A stretch of DNA of 64,000 bases from an uncultured delta proteobacterium. Lineage in GTDB: Bacteria; Desulfobacterota; Binatia; UBA9968. Positions 11,188 to 55,528 of this stretch are shown one piece after another. The stretch spans positions 143,878 to 207,877 of the forward strand of contig CAVSHR010000007.1 in the NCBI GenBank assembly GCA_963727625.1. Reading direction: 5' to 3'. Made by a program: the position numbers and the translations under genes. The notes beneath the pieces are model-generated. The model was not told where the DNA came from, ran no database searches, and saw only the letters and a program-made list of their open reading frames with translations. Numbering within the stretch: position 1 is the stretch's first letter; the number at the start of each line of letters is the position of its first letter.

Positions 11188-11513
11188 TGTAAGCTGCGCT
11201 CGACGCTTGTCTCTCAACGACGTCGGTCTAACGCGAAACGCTCCTTTCGGTCTGCTTAGCTGCCGGCCGGGTCGATCCCGATCGGTTTTCCCCTCCCTTG
11301 TCTGTCGCCGCGTCAAGTCCATTGGCCTGCGGTTTGTGATTTGAGTGAATGTCTAGGATATTCGTTCCAGCTCAGAACTGTTTTGCGATTTTTTTCCGTG
11401 TAAAAACGCAGCGAATGGTGGTTTCCCGGCTCTGTGTTCCTATAGATTGCAGTGCCTTTGACAAGCGACGCTGACCGATCGCAATATTCGGCGATGGATT
11501 TGAACTCCAACCA

Positions 11514-11627
11514 AGACGCTTCGACGGCAGCTATCGCTGGTTTCTCTTTCGCGCCGTGCCGGCGCGGGACGGCGCAGGCAAGCTGATCCGTTGGTATGGA
11601 ACCAACGCCGACATCGAAGACCTCAAA
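11514..11627 (+). pseudogene. PAS/PAC-domain fragment of a sensor protein
   Basis: RRFDGSYRWFLFRAVPARDGAGKLIRWYGTNADIEDLK is a classic PAC motif; no start or stop context. Confidence 0.75.
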
Positions 11628-11828
11628 TTCTTCCACGGTAATGCCTGCACCCTGGATCAGGGCACGGAGCGTTCCTCTGTCGCGCTCTCGATGATCGGGC
11701 ACCGACAGATGACGGCGGTTTGGATGGTACAGGATGATGTGGCTTCCCTTTTGCCGGTGGAAGATAAAACCGACTTTCCCAAAAACTTTGACCGCGTCGC
11801 GGCCGGAGATGACAGAGTAGCGTGGCCG
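11620..11828 (-). pseudogene. hicA: HicA-family mRNA interferase lacking a start codon and its native stop
   Basis: In frame: RPRYSVISGRDAVKVFGKVGFIFHRQKGSHIILYHPNRRHLSVPDH...GTLRALIQGAGITVEEF (GSH motif). Confidence 0.8.
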
Positions 11829-12044
11829 TCAAGCGGCGACGCTGATCTCGACGATATCGGCGGACGGAATGGGTAGATTTTGCGCTCGACGTACTCCGAT
11901 AATGCCTTCGATCGCTTCCCGGATATTTTTAAGCGCCTTTTCCCGGGTCTTACCTTGAGAGACGCAGCCCGGAAGCGTAGGGCATTCGGCCACAATATAG
12001 CCGTCTTCCCCGGCGCTCAACGTAACGATATACGTCTTTTCCAT
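11829..12044 (-). CDS. hicB: HicB-family antitoxin (short, UPF0150-like)
   Basis: EDGYIVAECPTLPGCVSQGKTREKALKNIREAI. Confidence 0.9.
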   Translation of the reverse strand: MEKTYIVTLSAGEDGYIVAECPTLPGCVSQGKTREKALKNIREAIEGIIGVRRAQNLPIPSADIVEISVAA

Positions 12045-12110
12045 AGCAGCAGGATCCTAACATTTTCCGTGTTTTAATGAGAATAGGTTCTTTCAAATCA
12101 CGGCATGACG

Positions 12111-25746: not shown

Positions 25747-26610
25747 ATGCCTACCTTATATAACCCGAAAAACAAATTCCCTATCGAAGTTTCCGACGTC
25801 GAGTTTCGCCGCGCGCCGACGCGGACGTTGATGGCGCGGCTCTATCGGCCCCAGGGCGACGGGCCGTTTCCAGTGCTGCTGGATTTGCACGGCGGCGCTT
25901 GGAACAACCAGGACCGCGGCGCCAACGCGGCGATGGATCAGAACCTGGCATCGAGTGGAATTCTAGTTGTCGCCGTCGATTTGACCCGCGCGCCGGAGGC
26001 GCCCTATCCTGCCTCGGTACAGGATGCCAACTACGGCGTGCGCTGGCTCAAGCACAAGGCGCGCGAGTGGAACGGCGACCCGGCGACCCTGGGCGCGCTG
26101 GGGAGCTCCAGCGGCGGCCATGTGGTCGAGCTTTGCGCGATGCGGCCCCATCATCCTTTATACAGCGTCCACAAGCTCGCCGAGGCGCCCGCGCTCGACG
26201 CGACGGTCAATTACGTGGCCACCCGGTCGCCGGTAAGCGATCCCTACGCGCGTTACTTGAACGCGGAAAAATTGGCCAGAGAAGAAATGATGCAGAACAG
26301 CAAGAACTATTTTAACCCCTGGGATACCATTCATGAGGGAAACCCGCAGGAAATCCTCGACCACGGCGAGAAGGTCACTTTGCCGCCGCTCTTGATCATG
26401 CAGGGCGAGCTCGACGATAACGTGCGGCCGGCGGTGCAGCAGAAATTTGTCGATAGCTACCGCGCCGCCGGCGGCGAATGCCAATATGAGGTCTTTGCCG
26501 GCTGCGAACACCTGTGGATTCGCGAGCCGGGGCCGCAAACGGACCGCGCCTACGAAATCGTCAAAGCGTTTATCTTGAAGCAGTTGAAAGCCAAACGGCT
26601 GGCGGCGTAG
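25747..26610 (+). CDS. Alpha/beta hydrolase (HSL-type esterase)
   Basis: HGGAW, GSSSGG nucleophile, QGELDD, C-terminal H. Confidence 0.9.
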   Translation: MPTLYNPKNKFPIEVSDVEFRRAPTRTLMARLYRPQGDGPFPVLLDLHGGAWNNQDRGANAAMDQNLASSGILVVAVDLTRAPEAPYPASVQDANYGVRWLKHKAREWNGDPATLGALGSSSGGHVVELCAMRPHHPLYSVHKLAEAPALDATVNYVATRSPVSDPYARYLNAEKLAREEMMQNSKNYFNPWDTIHEGNPQEILDHGEKVTLPPLLIMQGELDDNVRPAVQQKFVDSYRAAGGECQYEVFAGCEHLWIREPGPQTDRAYEIVKAFILKQLKAKRLAA

Positions 26611-26634
26611 GGGCGACCGGCCGGTCGTCCCTAC
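26607..26634. repeat. GTAG-type REP-like palindrome
   Basis: GTAGGGGCGACCGGCCGGTCGTCCCTAC between convergent genes; related copy at 37302-37329. Confidence 0.7.
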
Positions 26635-26638
26635 ACTG

Positions 26639-27085
26639 TTATCTTTTTCCGGCGAACCGCCGGTGATCGACCATCAGTCAACGGTCTTGCACGACTTTGA
26701 TTCCCGCACGGGCGAAGTTTTCCGCGGCGCCGTCATTGCGGATGCCGGACTGAAACCAAACCGAATTCGGTTTTTTCTCCAGGATATCGTCGACATGTCG
26801 GGCGATATCCGGGGATCGGCGAAAAACGTCGACCATGTCGATTTCGCCGGGAATATCGATCAATTTGCGATAAACTTTCTGACCGAGAATCACCGTCGCG
26901 TCCGGATAGTAGACCGGCACGGGAATAATTTCGTAGCCGGCCTCTTGCATATAGAGCGGCACGTAAACCGACGGCTGATCGGCCTGCGCTTCGGTCTTGA
27001 TGCCGAGCACGGCGATGCGCCTGGTGTGAAGGATCAAATCGCGAATCTGCTCGCTGCTCTGAAGCAGGTTGTCTTGCCAGTTCAT
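26639..27085 (-). CDS. YccU-like CoA-binding protein with in-frame UGA at codon 136 (predicted selenocysteine)
   Basis: IAVLG...DMVDVFR...VWFQSGI...VVQDR-[UGA]-LMVDHRRFAGKR*; the family reads VxDRCxxxEH; SECIS-like hairpin follows. Confidence 0.8.
26649..26663 (-). promoter_or_regulatory. Putative bacterial SECIS for the CoA-binding protein UGA
   Basis: CCGGC-GGUUC-GCCGG, separated from the UGA by 14 nt. Confidence 0.65.
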
Positions 27086-27249
27086 GGCGCCAGTCTAGCA
27101 AAAGAATGTGAGATCCCGAACCTTAAACTTGAGCCTTAGCCTTGACGCCCGGCGCTTTGGCGTATTAATAGCCGAACATTCAGGGCAGTCGGCGTGCATT
27201 GCGAACCAAAGCGACGTGGCCGTTTAACCAGTACAAAGGACAAAGCTCT

Positions 27250-29481
27250 ATGGCTGATTTTAAAGTAGTTGGAACTCCGGTGCCGCGCGGTGAAGGTAGC
27301 AAAAAAGTCAGGGGCCAAACGGTTTATGCCGCCGATGTAAAACTCCCCGGTTTGCTCTGGGCGAAAGTCCTGCGCAGCCCGCATCCCCATGCGCGGATTC
27401 GCAGCATCGATATATCCAGGGCGGGAAAAGTCCCCGGCGTGCGTGCGATCCTGACCGGCGAAGACGTCAAGGGCCGGTTCGTCGGCAAGCAGATCCGCGA
27501 CATGCCGGTGCTCTGCTGGGACAAAGTTCGTTTCGTCGGCGACCGGGTCGCGGCGGTGGCGGCGGAAACCGTCGACGCGGCGGAAGAGGCGATCCATTTA
27601 ATCGACGTCGATTACGAAATACTGCCGGCGGTTTTCGAACCGCTCGAAGCGACGGCGCCGAGCGCTCCGACGATTCATGAAAACGTCGCCGGCTACGCCG
27701 GCGGGCCGGAAAAAATTCTCGCCGCCGATTTGCATAACGGGCTGACGCGGCTCAAGTGGGAGAAGGGCGACGTGGAAGCCGGATTTCGCGACTCCGATCT
27801 GGTCATGGAACATACGTTCTATGTTCCGGCGCGCCATCAGGGCTATCTCGAACCGCACGCGGCGAGCATCGCCATCGAAACCGACGGGCGGATTCAAGTC
27901 TGGGCCTCGGTCAAAAATCCCTTCAACGTGCGCACCCAATTGGCCAACGGCATCGGGGTTGCCGAAGAGCGCATCCGCATGAATCCGGTGAATGTTGGCG
28001 GCGAGTTCGGCGGCAAGGGCGACGGCGTCGAGCTGCCGGTGATTTATTTTCTCGCGCAAAAGGCGGGAAGCCCGGTGAAGCTCGTCATGAGCTACGCCGA
28101 GGAATTGTCGGCGAGCAATCCCGCCCATCCGACCGTCATCACGATCAAGAGCGGCGTAATGCGCGACGGGCGCCTGGTCGCGCGCAAGATGCGCGCGGCG
28201 CACGCCAGCGGCGGTTATGGCGCGCTCAAGTCGAATACCTCCTTGGCGACCTGGCACTACGCCGGCGGGCAATACCGGGTCGACAACGCCGACATCGAAT
28301 ATCTGCAAATTTACACCAACACGGTGCCCGGCGGTTATTACCGCAGCCCGGGCGCAGTGGCCACGGCATTTGCCGTCGACGGCCATACCGATATCCTCGC
28401 CAAGGAGCTCGGCATGGACCCGGCCGAGTTCCGTCTGAAAAATTTCTTGCGGGAAGGGGAGGCGGACGCGGTCGGCCACGAGCTGCACAACGTGCGCTTC
28501 CGCGAAGTGCTGCAGGGGGCGCTCGGCGCGGCCGGTTGGGAGAAAACCAAAAAGCGCAATCGCGGCCGCGGTATCGCGCTGTCCGGCCGGCATATCAGCG
28601 GCGGCGACACGGGGGTGATCCTGCGCGCCGATCCGGACGGCGGGTTTTCAATCATCAGCCCGAGCATCGATCAAGGCTCGGGGACGCACACGATCTTGCG
28701 CCAGCTGGTCGCGGACCAGATGAAAATGCCGATCGATCAGGTGCGCGTGGTCATCGGCGACACCGACAGCGCGCCGCGCGACAGCGGCATGCGCGCAAGC
28801 CGGATGACCTACGTGGCGGGCCAAGCGATGATGCAAGCCTGCGACAAGCTGCGCGAGCGTTTGCTCGACCGGGCGGGGCGGCTGTTGGAATGTTCGGCGG
28901 ATGAAGTGGATTTCGCCGCCGGTCGATTTTCCCTGCGCCAGGACCCCGGGCAGCAGGTTTCGTTGCGCCGCGTGGTGGCCCAAGCCGCTGAACCCCTCGA
29001 AGCGATGGTTTACGAAGACTATCCTTACCCTGAAGACATTTCTTACCTTTGCGCCCAGGTGGCCGAGGTCGAAGTGGACCCCGACACCGGCGCCGTGAAG
29101 CTCTGTCGCTTCATCAGCGCCCACGACGTCGGCACGGTGATCAATCCGGCGATGCACCAGGGTCAGATCGACGGCGCGACGATCATGGGCATCGGCCAGG
29201 GCATCATGGAAGAGCTGGTGATCGACGGCGGCAAAGTAACCAATAACAATTTAGGCGACTACAAGCTGCCCTCGATCAAAGACATTCCCGAGCTGAAAAC
29301 CGTGCTGGTCAAATCCACCGGCGGCGTCGGCCCGCTGGATTCCAAACCGATCGGCGAGTTCGCCAACAACGCGCCGCCCGCCGCCATCGCCAACGCCATC
29401 GCCGACGCGGTGGGCGTGCGCTTGTTCGAGCTGCCGGTCAAGGCAGAGCAAATTTATCAGGCGTTGAAGGAGAGGCGCTGA
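27250..29481 (+). CDS. Xanthine dehydrogenase-family molybdopterin-binding subunit (paralog 2)
   Basis: LRSPHPHARI, GGEFGGK, AHDVGTVINP..GQIDG, KPIGE. Confidence 0.95.
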   Translation: MADFKVVGTPVPRGEGSKKVRGQTVYAADVKLPGLLWAKVLRSPHPHARIRSIDISRAGKVPGVRAILTGEDVKGRFVGKQIRDMPVLCWDKVRFVGDRVAAVAAETVDAAEEAIHLIDVDYEILPAVFEPLEATAPSAPTIHENVAGYAGGPEKILAADLHNGLTRLKWEKGDVEAGFRDSDLVMEHTFYVPARHQGYLEPHAASIAIETDGRIQVWASVKNPFNVRTQLANGIGVAEERIRMNPVNVGGEFGGKGDGVELPVIYFLAQKAGSPVKLVMSYAEELSASNPAHPTVITIKSGVMRDGRLVARKMRAAHASGGYGALKSNTSLATWHYAGGQYRVDNADIEYLQIYTNTVPGGYYRSPGAVATAFAVDGHTDILAKELGMDPAEFRLKNFLREGEADAVGHELHNVRFREVLQGALGAAGWEKTKKRNRGRGIALSGRHISGGDTGVILRADPDGGFSIISPSIDQGSGTHTILRQLVADQMKMPIDQVRVVIGDTDSAPRDSGMRASRMTYVAGQAMMQACDKLRERLLDRAGRLLECSADEVDFAAGRFSLRQDPGQQVSLRRVVAQAAEPLEAMVYEDYPYPEDISYLCAQVAEVEVDPDTGAVKLCRFISAHDVGTVINPAMHQGQIDGATIMGIGQGIMEELVIDGGKVTNNNLGDYKLPSIKDIPELKTVLVKSTGGVGPLDSKPIGEFANNAPPAAIANAIADAVGVRLFELPVKAEQIYQALKERR

Positions 29482-45404: not shown

Positions 45405-46694
45405 TCAGACTTCTTCTTGAAGCGTTTGCAGCGCGCGTAGGATCAATTCGCGCCGGAATTCTTTTTCTTTGTCCGGAGGCAAGTCAGGATTGCCGGTGGG
45501 ACTGACGATGCCGCCGGAGGCAATCGCCCGGAGCGAGCCAACTTCTTTGGCCACCGGGATCATCGTGCAGATCTGTGTCACGGGGATTTCCAGCTTTTCG
45601 ATTTCCTTGCTGATCGCTGCGCCGCAGCGGGTGCTCGAACCTCAGGTCGAGGTCAGAATCACACCGGTGACGTTCGCGGCTTTCAGCTGATCGGCGATCT
45701 GCCGGCCGATCTGCGTGGCGTTTTCGACGGCGGCGTGGGCGCCGCCGGTGGAGCGGACAAATTCATGCAATTTTCCGATTATACCCTCGCGTTCCAGCTC
45801 GCGCATGGTGTCGAGCGGTACCAGCCGGTTCGGATCGCGGTTGGCGGCGGCGGTGTCATAGCCGGAGTGGACGGCGTCGAATTTATCGGCGTCGAGGGAA
45901 TTGACGCCGGCGATCGGGATGGTCGTGAAGCGCGTCGGGCGGCCGGGCTCGATCTTGTCGGGGTTACCTTCGGGCACCAGGCCTCCGTCGGTGACCAGCG
46001 CGATCACCGCTGATTTTAAATCGCGCAGCGGCGCAGCGGGTTTGCCGCCAGCGAATTTTGGCGGTGCGATTTCCGATTCAAATTCCGCACCGCGTAATTT
46101 GGCCAGCAGCATGTCGACGGCGCGCTCGGCCGGCGGTTTGGCGGCAAACTCGTTGCGCTTGATGCCGCGCTGCAGATAACCTTCGCTTTCGGGTCTGCCG
46201 ATGGCGTCGCGGCGCACCAGCTTCACGCCGAGGATAGCCATGCGCTGCAGTGTCGGCACCATACGCGCGATCGATGCACCGGAATTGACGATGAAGATAT
46301 GCTTTCGATAGAGACCGGCGCCGACGTTGTCTTCATCCATGCCCGCCACGGCGACGATGTTGAGACGCTGTTGCGCCGCCAGGCAAATTGCGCCGCAGGC
46401 GATGCCGTAGCGGCCGCTCTCGAACGCAGGACCGGCGATCAGCAAGTGCGGTTTGTATTCGGCCATTTGTTGAATCAATTGATCGTTCGCCTGCTCTTGC
46501 TGCTCGGCAAAATAGTTATCTCCACAAAAGATTGTCGCGACGATTTCGCCGTGCTCGCCCAGCGCCTGCTGCAGCGCGCGGCCTGGGCCGATCAGACCCG
46601 CTTTCACCTGCGGCCCGACGTCCGCTTTGTCTTCACCACCGATTTGGGCGAAGAATTGATTCAAGTAGTGCACGACACGAATCTTTGTGTTCAT
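45405..46694 (-). CDS. grdB: Glycine/betaine/sarcosine reductase selenoprotein B (Sec at codon 351)
   Basis: VVHYLNQFFAQIGGE, AGPAF..GRYG, VILTST-[UGA 45642-44]-GSSTRCGAAISKEIEK...PTGNP...LQEEV*. Confidence 0.92.
45615..45629 (-). promoter_or_regulatory. Putative SECIS of grdB
   Basis: CGCUGC-GGC-GCAGCG, separated from the UGA by 12 nt. Confidence 0.7.
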
Positions 46695-53758: not shown

Positions 53759-55420
53759 TCAGCGCCATGCGTCGATCGAAACCGTTTTCTGATAGTTGCA
53801 GCCCATGATGCGCCAGTAGCCGTTGGTTTCGCCGCCGACCACGACGACGTGAATTTCGTCGGGCTTGAACATTTTAACCATCTCGTCCGGCGCCGCTTTC
53901 AATTTGCTCGCATAGGGTTCTTCGCCAAAGGTTGCACGTGGGTAGATATAATTCTGAATCAGCTGATAGTCCCAATACTCGCCGGCGGGCATGAGCGCGT
54001 TGTCGTAAACCCACTGGATGAGTTTTTCCTTGGTGTCGAAGCCACCGCGGTCGATATATTGCCGCGCAGCGATGGGGTCGAGCAGGAAGGTCGGCGCGCT
54101 GTGCGCGTCCATGCCGCGCAGCATGTTGCGCACATGCTCGCGCCAATATTTTTCACGAACGCCGAGTGTGAAGGCGGTGGAGCGGCAGCCGGTAAAGATG
54201 CTGACCGTGCTGTCGCTTGCTTTAAAACCATGCTGTACATGGAACGGCTCCCAGGGGCTGCGCTCTTCGTTCTCCGCGAAGGTAACCGTGCCGTAGGCAT
54301 AACCGTTGCCCTGGGAGCCCATGTAACTGTCCCCGGGGATCGAGCCACCCTGAAGATTTTGCGACAGCAAACCATAGGCGCGGCCGATGGTCGCATTGGG
54401 GTGGTTGTAGGGCGCCATGGCGCCGGTGCCGGAGTTCATGCCGATTTCTTTGCGGATCGGACCGTTGACCGCGACCATCGCCGCCATGGAGCTGGTGGTG
54501 CTGCCGCGCGCGCTCACGCCGCTGGCGGCGAGGGCCAATATCACCGGAAAATATTCCGGCTTGGCGCCCGCCATCACCGCGTTGACCGCGACTTTTTCGA
54601 CGGTGAACTCCCAATGCTGGCGGAACTGATTCGAGCGTATATGCCCGGCGACTTCGTCCGGCTTGCGGCTCGTGTGTGCGAGCATTTCTTTGACTTTCTT
54701 TTCCGTCGGCAAAACGATCGGCAGCTTATCCGTCCAATTGTTCTCGAGGAACAAACGATGCATGTTTTCTTCGCCGTCGGTGTCCACCAGCCGCGGCGTC
54801 GAGCGTTCGAACTTGGTTTCTTTGAGGCGATCGCCTTCGGCCGGACGGGTGAGACCTTCGATGACTTCCTGCATCACCGGCCGGCCGCTGATCGGGCTTT
54901 TGCCGTCGACGTAGACGCGCAGCTGCTCAGCGGTCTTGCCCATCACGGGTTGGGGCACGAAGGTATAACGCGCCTCAGGCATGCCGTGCATTCGGGTCAC
55001 CGACTGGACTGCTTTCTCGAAGACGTTGGTATGGATGGCAACGGTGGGCACACCGTACTTGCTATCGAGCGCGATTGCGTGCACGGCGACCGCCGGCGCG
55101 CAGGTGCTTCAATGACCGACACCGATGATGGCGCCGTCGCCGTTGGCCTTGATCATCTCCCAGGTTTTCGGATCGTCTTTGGTATAGACGCTCGACATCT
55201 CGACGAGCTTAGTCGTCACCGAAGGCATGCGCTCGGCGAACCAATCCTGCACCTGGAGCAGAAACAGGCCTGAGTCGTCGAAGCGCGGGTCGACCAGATA
55301 AATGGTCTTGCCATCGAGGCCGTCGAGCCGCGGCGCCATCGGTTTGGGCGTGATCTTGGGCGGAAAACCGGCCGGATTGAGCGCCGACAATTTTTGCAAA
55401 CCATTCGTGTGTTCGGCCAT
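53759..55420 (-). CDS. UGSC-family selenoprotein, long form (Sec at codon 104)
   Basis: ORFs 55109-55468 and 53759-55084 are in one frame, joined by GVGH-[UGA]-STCAPAVA; C-domain WTDKLPIVLPT...TVEKVAVNAVMAG, NATIGRA. Confidence 0.88.
55084..55095 (-). promoter_or_regulatory. Putative SECIS of the UGSC selenoprotein
   Basis: CGGC-GGUC-GCCG, separated from the UGA by 13 nt. Confidence 0.65.
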
Positions 55421-55528
55421 GTGTCTAGCCTCCTCTTGGCTACTCCAAGCAGTCGATTCCCACACCAAAACTATGCGATGTCGTGAACCCGCGTCAAGCG
55501 CAAATAAGCATCTAAGATATGGCCACGA

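What the first reader, a model, noticed from the sequence alone, without database searches (positions are those of the whole stretch)
26639..27085. Candidate new selenoprotein: YccU-like CoA-binding protein with Sec in place of the conserved Cys
The ORF caller stops at VVQDR-UGA (26678-26680), but the frame continues LMVDHRRFAGKR-UAA. That tail is the family's usual C-terminal DRC-x-x-x-(E/D)H motif, so UGA sits exactly on the conserved Cys. Fourteen nt after the UGA lies a GC hairpin, CCGGC-GGUUC-GCCGG, whose loop starts with G. It closely resembles the hairpins after the two recognisable Sec codons in this window (grdB, UGSC), which indicate that this organism decodes UGA as Sec. YccU-type proteins have no established redox function, so Sec here would imply a catalytic thiol/selenol. 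I do not recall this family among the classical selenoprotein lists but cannot check that.
Basis: partly seen in the sequence, partly recalled or inferred. Interest (0 to 1): 0.85.

Follow-up and report, generated by a model that had tools for sequence, protein, structure and literature searches.

The report
New selenoprotein: Sec-containing CoA-binding protein
A small CoA-binding protein of unknown function carries selenocysteine in place of its one invariant cysteine, which adds a family to the known selenoproteins and marks that residue as the likely catalytic site.

Summary
The minus-strand gene 27085..26639 is a PF13380 CoA-binding protein. Its in-frame TGA (26680-26678) sits on the family's invariant Cys (DRC-LMV-E/DH), and the frame runs on for 12 codons to TAA.

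- **Sec/Cys pairing:** in 139 distinct genome loci that column is TGA (23) or TGC/TGT (116), never anything else.
- **Distribution:** TGA forms occur in the window's own genus (19 of 20 genomes that hold the gene) and in a second genus of the order (4 of 13). Soil metagenomes add at least one further clade.
- **Hairpin:** every TGA form has a hairpin 14-16 nt downstream. 22 of 23 meet the published bacterial SECIS criteria, against 7 of 116 Cys forms.
- **RNA-level selection:** the clades carry three different stem sequences. There are compensatory changes and no synonymous variation across the stem.
- **Machinery:** selA, selB, selD and tRNA-Sec are present in the genome.
- **Novelty:** the family is missing from a 2026 catalogue of 119 prokaryotic selenoprotein families and has no NCBIfam model. 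Databases hold it truncated as "CoA-binding protein".

No selenium or expression data exist. A redox role at the CoA thiol is inference only.

The parts
26639..27085 (-). Full coding sequence of the Sec-containing CoA-binding protein: 148 residues (U at 136) plus the TAA stop.
   Evidence: Translation with TGA=U. PF13380 CoA_binding_2, E 6.6e-31, residues 22-141 against profile positions 1-115 of 116. PDB relatives 1iuk and 2d59 align through the tail.
26678..26680 (-). In-frame TGA read as selenocysteine (residue 136), on the family's invariant Cys column.
   Evidence: Column is TGA in 23 and TGC/TGT in 116 of 139 distinct loci. Cys136 is invariant in alignment A1.
26664..26677 (-). 14-nt spacer between the Sec codon and the stem. 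It encodes L-M-V-D and the first two bases of the His codon.
   Evidence: Spacing from UGA to the apical loop is 20 nt, within the published 16-37 nt range.
26649..26663 (-). SECIS-type hairpin CCGGCG-GUU-CGCCGG: 6-bp stem, 3-nt loop starting with G, -9.4 kcal/mol. It lies inside the codons for H-R-R-F-A-G.
   Evidence: In 19 congeneric sequences, 7 of the 9 degenerate codons downstream of the TGA show no synonymous variation, among them the 5 that lie wholly in the hairpin (H, R, R, F, A); the codons D(+4) and G(+10) do vary. Compensatory pairs in metagenomic variants.
26639..26641 (-). True stop codon TAA, 12 codons after the Sec codon.
   Evidence: Relatives stop 7-13 codons after the TGA with TAA, TAG or TGA.
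26607..26634 (.). 12-bp palindromic hairpin between this gene and the convergent alpha/beta-hydrolase gene (25747-26610, +). Probably a bidirectional terminator.
   Evidence: (terminator-like scan). A similar palindrome is seen downstream in several congeners.

Best explanation
The gene encodes a 148-residue single-domain CoA-binding protein (Pfam CoA_binding_2; relatives TT1466 and PH1109). The family's single invariant cysteine is replaced by selenocysteine.

Inferred mechanism of decoding: during translation the UGA at 26680-26678 is not read as stop. The hairpin 14 nt downstream acts as a bacterial SECIS element. It recruits SelB carrying Sec-tRNA(Sec), Sec is inserted, and translation runs 12 more codons to TAA.

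Shown by comparison: a Sec/Cys pair at one column, a conserved in-frame tail, a conserved and covarying hairpin, and the Sec machinery in the genome.

Inferred function: Sec136 is the protein's only thiol or selenol and sits in the family's most conserved motif. It is probably the catalytic residue and probably reacts with the thiol end of bound CoA, as a selenenylsulfide intermediate in CoA-disulfide, CoA-persulfide or protein-CoA exchange. My odds are about 0.9 that Sec is inserted here and about 0.35-0.4 for this particular chemistry.
For: 1. **Sec/Cys pairing.** 139 distinct loci of 144 (5 identical duplicates dropped) have TGA (23) or TGC/TGT (81 and 35) at the column, and nothing else.
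2. **Long-term retention.** TGA is kept in 19 of the 20 genomes of the window's genus that hold the gene, at 75-85% protein identity, and in 4 of 13 in a second genus.
3. **Independent sampling.** Among the best 120 database clusters, 76 end exactly before the Cys column (one of them is the window's own ORF) and 44 have Cys.
4. **Coding tail.** LMV(D/E)HR is kept after the TGA, with synonymous changes in CTN, GTN and GAY, and varied true stops follow.
5. **Hairpin.** 22 of 23 TGA forms meet the published bSECIS criteria (review PMC13188914, section 5), against 7 of 116 Cys forms. Mean energy of the 45 nt downstream is -14.8 against -11.0 kcal/mol at similar G+C, with no difference upstream.
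6. **RNA-level selection.** In 19 congeneric sequences, 19 of 20 upstream codons vary synonymously. The downstream codons for L, V, H, R, R, F and A never do.
7. **Different stems in different clades.** CCGGCG-GUU-CGCCGG in the own genus, GGUCGCC-GGC-GGCGACC in the second genus, and 7-8-bp stems with 4-nt loops such as GCUC, on variant arms, in a metagenomic clade. In 22 sequences of that clade, pair 21-30 is GC 14, CG 7, GU 1 and pair 23-28 is GC 14, AU 6. 91.5% of cells are paired against 16-56% when the partner is slid, and 0 of 500 shuffles reach the covariation score.
8. **Machinery.** selB 397 bits, selA 607 bits, tRNA-Sec 76.7 bits, and selD 377 bits with a TGA of its own. selB was found in 54 of 61 relatives.
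9. **Same hairpin type** after seven recognised Sec codons of this genome.
10. **Sole thiol.** 98 of 108 Sec forms and 85 of 87 Cys forms have no other Cys before the column.
Against: - There is no direct evidence of selenium insertion or of expression. No RNA run holds the stretch, and the DNA contigs that were laid do not cover the TGA.
- The hairpin alone is weak evidence: 7% of all TGA triplets in the window pass the generic criteria, and fold z-scores are not significant.
- One TGA form (L029) fails the -7.5 kcal/mol cut-off because of a G-U pair.
- The sequences are related, so counts of loci and the shuffle controls overstate independence. Only two stem positions covary.
- The metagenomic loci were selected by a pattern that includes the TGA and the LMV(D/E)H codons. 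They cannot be used to estimate how common the TGA form is.
- Two TGA-bearing orthologues (G018, G025) align in pieces and may be frameshifted.
- selA, selB and tRNA-Sec were not found in the TGA-bearing genome G009, which is 93% complete.
- Nothing here shows that Cys/Sec136 lies near the CoA thiol.
- No conserved gene neighbourhood beyond the genus points to a function.
Confidence: 0.9

Rival explanations
1. The TGA is an ordinary stop. The cell makes a 135-residue protein without the Cys motif, and the downstream hairpin is a terminator, a remnant or chance.
For: Gene callers in all sources stop there: 76 of the best 120 clusters are 135-residue forms. GC-rich hairpins are common, with 7% of TGA triplets followed by one. 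There are no expression or selenium data.
Against: The truncated product would lack one of the family's 14 invariant residues and the conserved His. The 5-6 codons after the TGA are kept in frame at the amino-acid level with synonymous changes, and a second, variable stop follows. The hairpin has no U-run and lies inside the conserved frame, and a separate terminator-like palindrome follows the TAA. TGA never alternates with TAA or TAG at that column, only with Cys codons.
Confidence: 0.03
2. The TGA is a private nonsense mutation, a pseudogene or a base-call or assembly error in this genome.
For: The window comes from a 15-contig assembly with 6.3% contamination. The contigs laid from other runs did not cover the codon.
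Against: The same TGA stands in 22 other distinct genome loci and in at least 120 metagenome contigs from many data sets, at protein identities down to 57%.
Confidence: 0.01
3. The UGA is read through by a mechanism other than Sec: a near-cognate Trp, Cys or Arg, or a suppressor tRNA.
For: Sequence alone cannot tell which residue is inserted.
Against: The genome has the complete Sec machinery. The codon is followed by the same type of hairpin as its recognised Sec codons. The pairing is with Cys only, as expected for Sec. No tRNA with a UCA anticodon other than tRNA-Sec was looked for beyond the window.
Confidence: 0.03
4. Sec is inserted, but the residue is an acyl acceptor (a selenoester or thioester intermediate taken from acyl-CoA) or a metal or persulfide ligand, rather than a redox partner of the CoA thiol.
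For: The domain is the CoA-binding domain of the acyl-CoA synthetase (NDP-forming) superfamily. Paralogues in this genome carry a conserved Cys in GPNC just after the same domain. For E. coli succinyl-CoA synthetase a paper titled 'Participation of Cys123alpha ... in catalysis' exists. I saw only its title, in a reference list.
Against: By the reviews read here, most uncharacterised selenoproteins are thought to serve redox functions. No acyl-transfer partner gene is conserved beside it. The equivalence of DRC and GPNC was not shown.
Confidence: 0.2

Closest known systems
Single-domain CoA-binding proteins of Pfam PF13380 / COG1832 (Thermus TT1466, PDB 1iuk/1iul; Pyrococcus PH1109, PDB 2d59/2d5a; E. 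coli YccU, named from memory)
   Same: Same family and length, E 1.4e-24 to 1iuk. The alignment runs through the C-terminal DRC-LMV-EH motif.
   Different: Sec in place of the invariant Cys, with a SECIS hairpin written into the last codons. None of the solved proteins is a selenoprotein, and no function is assigned to them in the PDB titles.
Recognised bacterial selenoproteins of the same genome (GrdB-like, UGSC family, SelD)
   Same: UGA followed 12-25 nt later by a 6-9-bp GC-rich stem with a 3-nt loop starting with G. Each has Cys-containing homologues elsewhere.
   Different: A Rossmann-type CoA-binding fold rather than a thioredoxin-like or GrdB fold. There is no UxxC or CxxU motif and usually no second Cys at all. 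The Sec lies 12 residues from the C-terminus.
[quoted passage not shown]
   Same: A selenoprotein tied to CoA thiol chemistry by its name.
   Different: An unrelated flavoprotein fold. No sequence relation was seen in any search here.
CoA-binding domain of succinyl-CoA synthetase alpha / NDP-forming acyl-CoA synthetases, with the conserved GPNC cysteine
   Same: Homologous N-terminal CoA-binding domain. A conserved Cys follows the last strand of the domain in paralogues of this genome.
   Different: Multi-domain enzymes. Profile alignments end before the Cys, so the equivalence of the two cysteines is a lead, not a result. That Cys123alpha lies near the CoA site is recalled, not read here.

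Membership tests
Bacterial selenoprotein (UGA-Sec with bSECIS) | In-frame UGA aligned with Cys in homologues (Sec/Cys pair) | tested here: met
   23 TGA and 116 TGC/TGT of 139 distinct loci, no other codon.
Bacterial selenoprotein (UGA-Sec with bSECIS) | Conserved coding sequence downstream of the UGA | tested here: met
   LMV(D/E)HR is kept in all 23 genome loci with synonymous variation. It aligns to PDB relatives.
Bacterial selenoprotein (UGA-Sec with bSECIS) | Stem-loop that meets the consensus model: 3-9 nt loop, 4-16 bp stem, G in the first two loop positions, 16-37 nt from UGA to loop, -7.5 kcal/mol or lower | tested here: met
   Window: 3-nt loop GUU, 6 bp, 20 nt, -9.4 kcal/mol. 22 of 23 TGA forms pass against 7 of 116 Cys forms (criteria). 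bSECISearch itself was not available.
Bacterial selenoprotein (UGA-Sec with bSECIS) | selA, selB, selD and tRNA-Sec in the genome | tested here: met
   All are over the curated cut-offs on contig C5.
Bacterial selenoprotein (UGA-Sec with bSECIS) | Selenium shown in the protein (75Se labelling or mass spectrometry) | not testable with these tools
   No experiment was possible, and no RNA holder is listed.
Pfam CoA_binding_2 (PF13380), YccU/TT1466-like | Match to the family profile over the gathering score | tested here: met
   107.6 bits against a cut-off of 22.8, profile positions 1-115 of 116.
Pfam CoA_binding_2 (PF13380), YccU/TT1466-like | Binds CoA | not testable with these tools
Only the molecule names of PDB entries were seen.
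Any of the 119 catalogued prokaryotic selenoprotein families | Listed in Table 1 of PMC13188914 or matched by an NCBIfam selenoprotein model | tested here: not met
   The table was read in full, and it has no PF13380 or CoA-binding entry. NCBIfam gives only two weak ACD hits at about 16 bits.
Thioredoxin-fold type redox selenoproteins | UxxC, CxxU or a similar motif with a resolving Cys | tested here: not met
   The motif is DR-U-LMV(D/E)H. 98 of 108 Sec forms have no other Cys before the column.

The most novel reading that the evidence does not exclude
The Sec/Cys pair shows that the whole single-domain CoA-binding family (YccU, YneT, TT1466, PH1109) is not a passive CoA binder. The family is widespread, structurally solved and functionally unassigned. 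On this reading it is a new class of single-cysteine (or single-selenocysteine) oxidoreductase on a Rossmann fold, and it uses the thiol of its own bound CoA as the resolving partner. Examples would be reducing CoA disulfide or CoA persulfide, or removing CoA from CoA-modified proteins. Sec was recruited to this site at least twice, and probably three or more times, in soil bacteria, each time with a newly made SECIS hairpin.
Probability: 0.3. Interest if true: 0.8.

Novelty: new member of a known kind. Interest (0 to 1): 0.62.

Why it matters
It adds a family to the prokaryotic selenoproteome that the most recent catalogue (119 families, 2026) and NCBI's naming models do not hold. Public databases store hundreds of its members as truncated "CoA-binding protein". 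The fold is unusual for a selenoprotein, and there is no CxxU-type motif.

Sec/Cys pairs are a recognised pointer to catalytic, usually redox-active, cysteines. The finding therefore gives a concrete, testable hypothesis for a widespread family with solved structures and no known function. It names the residue to mutate (the Cys of the DRC motif) and the chemistry to assay (CoA thiol/disulfide exchange).

The locus is also a clean natural example of SECIS evolution inside a coding tail. The peptide after the Sec changes (RRFAG, RRLRR, RQLCR, RSPAA) while the stem is preserved.

Tried and rejected
- **Single-sequence folding.** The 63-66 nt after the TGA fold no better than shuffles. The same is true of the recognised grdB site, so this test has no power here.
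- **Rfam.** No match on 26300-27400 at E up to 1.
- **Reads.** No RNA holder is listed. Contigs of three DNA runs were laid, but none covers 26648-26703, so they say nothing about the TGA.
- **Position of the Cys relative to CoA.**
  - hhalign of the family profile against this genome's SucD found nothing (probability 0.2).
  - hmmsearch against ACD-like paralogues aligns only up to about profile position 120, before the Cys.
  - The resemblance of ...VVQDRC to ...GPNC stays a lead.
- **Literature.**
  - A search for PH1109, TT1466, YccU and YneT found nothing useful.
  - A search for PF13380 / COG1832 found only unrelated uses.
  - I considered and dropped a complex-prediction job (dimer plus CoA), because I do not claim a protein-protein contact.
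- **Gene neighbourhood.** The convergent alpha/beta-hydrolase is kept within the genus and in one other genus of the family. In other clades the neighbours differ: rhomboid, SDR, NMT1, DUF2961, barstar and glyoxalase genes. There is no functional hint.
- **Loss of the Sec trait in G027, the one congener with Cys.** selA, selB and tRNA-Sec were not found there (92% complete). They were also not found in G009, which has the TGA (93% complete), so assembly gaps are as likely an explanation.
- **Prior reports searched for.**
  - 'selenoprotein' + 'CoA-binding' + 'selenocysteine' + 'bacteria': 2 unrelated papers.
  - 'selenoproteome' + 'CoA binding domain': 0.
  - 'selenocysteine' + 'Binatia': 0.
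  - 'new selenoprotein' + soil + metagenom + Sec-containing: 0.
  - Word search for CoA, YccU, COG1832 and PF13380, or for CoA, coenzyme A, COG1832 and Rossmann, in PMC13188914, PMC12013277, PMC9312934, PMC2398784, PMC1976440 and PMC1088965: no relevant passage.
Candidate lists in supplements, for example those of deep-Sep or of comparative-genomics papers, may hold this family without my seeing it.
- **Another strict-hairpin TGA** at 11831 (minus strand) is the real stop of a hicB-like gene, followed in frame by hicA.

Full report
**What is there.** On the minus strand an ORF starts at ATG 27085 and reads 135 codons to TGA at 26680-26678. The same frame continues L-M-V-D-H-R-R-F-A-G-K-R to TAA at 26641-26639.
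- The read-through product (148 residues) matches Pfam CoA_binding_2 (PF13380) at E 6.6e-31 over profile positions 1-115 of 116.
- It matches the solved single-domain CoA-binding proteins TT1466 (1iuk, E 1.4e-24) and PH1109 (2d59, E 1.7e-19). In those alignments the TGA falls on the Cys of DRCLMVEH and NRCMMREH, and the tail aligns residue for residue.
- In a 19-sequence alignment reaching down to 36% identity, that Cys is one of 14 invariant columns.
- Fourteen nt after the TGA lies CCGGCG-GUU-CGCCGG (26663-26649).

**Is it more than chance?** The hairpin alone is not strong evidence.
- 128 of 1833 TGA triplets in the window (7%) are followed by a hairpin that meets the generic bacterial SECIS criteria. 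19 (1.0%) are followed by a stem of 6 bp or more with a 3-nt loop starting with G.
- 54 of 1000 shuffles of the downstream 60 nt pass.
- Whole-segment fold energies are not unusual.

The case rests on comparison.

**Sec/Cys pairing.** I searched 61 related genomes, a 401-genome sample of the phylum and the named genome collection, and fetched five further loci.
- Of 144 loci, 139 were distinct. The codon at the Cys column is TGA in 23, TGC in 81 and TGT in 35, and never anything else.
- In the window's genus, 20 of 31 genomes hold the gene. 19 have TGA and one (G027) has TGC.
- In a second genus of the same order, 13 of 19 genomes hold the gene, 4 with TGA and 9 with Cys.
- In the phylum sample, 113 of 401 genomes have a relative at E up to 1e-20. 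None but the window's own has a TGA.
- The closest named records are metagenome-assembled genomes that their depositors label Candidatus Binatia bacterium, and in other cases Thermodesulfobacteriota or Syntrophobacter.
- A search of 5.8 billion proteins that does not depend on the TGA gave, among its best 120 clusters, 76 that end exactly before the Cys column (one is the window's own ORF) and 44 with Cys. Where the sources name them at all, they call them 'CoA-binding protein', 'hypothetical protein' or 'uncharacterized protein'.

**The hairpin is selected as RNA.** The published consensus asks for a 3-9 nt loop, a 4-16 bp stem, a G in the first two loop positions, 16-37 nt from UGA to the loop, and -7.5 kcal/mol or lower (review PMC13188914, section 5, read).
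- 22 of 23 TGA forms pass against 7 of 116 Cys forms. The one failure has a G-U pair that weakens an otherwise intact stem.
- One of the seven Cys forms that pass is G027, whose hairpin differs from its congeners' by one loop base. That looks like a recent Sec-to-Cys change.
- In the 19 congeneric TGA sequences, 19 of the 20 codons upstream of the TGA vary synonymously (mean minor-codon share 0.29). Downstream, the codons for L, V, H, R, R, F and A show no synonymous variation at all, including two six-fold degenerate Arg codons.
- The second genus has a different stem at nearly the same place: GGUCGCC-GGC-GGCGACC, 16 nt after the TGA.

These were chosen by the TGA and the flanking codons, so I use them only for hairpin variation.
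- They include a clade at 57-72% identity to the window protein, with tails RRLRR, RQLCR and RQLGR.
- In 22 such sequences the 8-pair helix is 91.5% paired, against 16-56% with slid partners.
- Pair 21-30 is GC 14, CG 7, GU 1. Pair 23-28 is GC 14, AU 6.
- No shuffle of 500 reaches the observed pairing or covariation score.
- The sequences are related, and only two positions covary, so this is supporting rather than decisive.
- The peptide after the His-Arg changes while the stem persists.

**Machinery.**
- The genome holds selA (607 bits), selB (397 bits) and a selD with its own in-frame TGA (377 bits) side by side on contig C5. tRNA-Sec (76.7 bits) lies 50 kb away.
- selB was found in 54 of 61 relatives, in all 11 genera.
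- Seven recognised Sec codons of this genome (selD, two UGSC, four grdB-like, one of them in the window at 45644-45642) are each followed by a 6-9-bp stem with a 3-nt loop GUC, GUG or GGC. This is the architecture of the hairpin here.

**History.**
- A tree of 107 genome-derived proteins needs at least 3 changes of the Sec/Cys state, 2 of them forced by well-supported branches. Rows under 58% identity or starting after residue 5 were left out.
- With the metagenomic forms added, the tree has 196 rows. It was built only on the 135 residues before the column, with FastTree. It needs at least 6 changes, 4 of them forced. One row (L194) sits on an aberrant long branch and should be discounted.
- Together with the three unrelated stem sequences, this points to at least two, and probably three or more, independent recruitments of Sec, plus one reversal.

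**What it does.** The decoding mechanism follows from established knowledge of bacterial Sec insertion and is an inference here. Function is also inferred.
- The residue is the only Cys or Sec in most members: 98 of 108 Sec forms and 85 of 87 Cys forms have no other Cys before it.
- It is invariant, and it lies in the family's most conserved motif near the C-terminus.
- The reviews read here state that most uncharacterised selenoproteins are thought to serve redox functions.
- With no resolving Cys in the protein, the bound CoA thiol is the obvious partner. My preferred reading is therefore a Se-S(CoA) intermediate in CoA-disulfide, CoA-persulfide or protein-CoA exchange, at odds of roughly 0.35-0.4.
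- The main rival is an acyl-accepting nucleophile, as once proposed for the conserved GPNC cysteine of succinyl-CoA synthetase. I saw only the title of that 2007 paper, in a reference list. That the residue lies near the CoA site is my recollection.
- Gene neighbourhood gives no hint.

**Is it known?**
[quoted passage not shown] I read it whole, and it has no CoA-binding or PF13380 entry.
- Word searches in that review, the 2022 review, the deep-Sep paper and the Sargasso, GOS and Olavius selenoproteome papers found nothing relevant.
- Four full-text searches found no report.
- NCBIfam release 20 has no model for it.
- Supplementary files could not be read, so an earlier listing in a supplement cannot be excluded.

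**Verdict.**
- This is a real and, as far as I could check, unlisted selenoprotein family.
- It is a new member of a known kind: standard recoding in a new protein family.
- Confidence that Sec is inserted is 0.9. The functional reading is much less certain.
- Counts that include the unpublished genome G005 (one of the 19 congeneric TGA loci) do not depend on it.

Noticed in passing
window 45405-46694 (-), Sec codon 45644-45642: GrdB-family gene (PF07355, 430.6 bits) with in-frame TGA in ...ILTST-U-GSSTRCG, followed 12 nt later by CGCUGC-GGC-GCAGCG. The genome has three more grdB-like copies, each with a TGA and a near-identical hairpin.
   Followed up: partly
window 53764-55528 (-), Sec codon 55111-55109: A 588-residue protein with an N-terminal UGSC-family domain (PF24696, 82.3 bits; NCBIfam NF041046 only 54.7 bits, below its cut-off). 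Its motif is G-H-U-S-T-C rather than UGSC, and it is fused to a large C-terminal part with no Pfam match. It may be a fused variant of the UGSC selenoprotein.
   Followed up: partly
G000 contig C5:715112-719466 and C5:768830-768920 (loci L001, L009, L010, L172): selA, selB and selD lie head to tail, and selD itself has an in-frame TGA (...AAG-U-AAKLG). tRNA-Sec lies about 50 kb further on.
   Followed up: partly
L019 (G027), same genus: The only congener with Cys (TGC) keeps the hairpin except for one loop base. selA, selB and tRNA-Sec were not found in that 92%-complete genome. This could be loss of the Sec trait with a Sec-to-Cys change. G009, which has the TGA form, also lacks matches, so assembly gaps may explain both.
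   Followed up: partly
window 26607-26634: A 12-bp perfect-stem palindrome lies between the convergent CoA-binding and alpha/beta-hydrolase genes. A similar palindrome follows the gene in several congeners. It may be a bidirectional terminator or a repeat element of the genus.
   Followed up: partly
window 11316-12056 (-): A hicB-like antitoxin and a hicA toxin lie in one frame, separated by a TGA (11831-11829) that happens to be followed by a SECIS-like hairpin. It is an ordinary stop between two genes and a useful example of a false positive.
   Followed up: yes
window 27619-27714 (-): ARAGORN calls a 96-nt tRNA-Met inside the molybdopterin-binding dehydrogenase ORF (27199-29481, +). It is probably a false positive.
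   Followed up: no
L162 (G025) and L163 (G018): Two TGA-bearing orthologues align to the query in two or three pieces in different frames. These are either frameshifted genes or assembly errors.
   Followed up: no
metagenome loci such as L191, L220, L240: In one metagenomic clade the 3' arm of the hairpin encodes a Cys nine residues after the Sec (U-LMVDHRQL-C-R-stop). Sister sequences have RRLRR instead. Whether that Cys matters for the protein is unknown.
   Followed up: no
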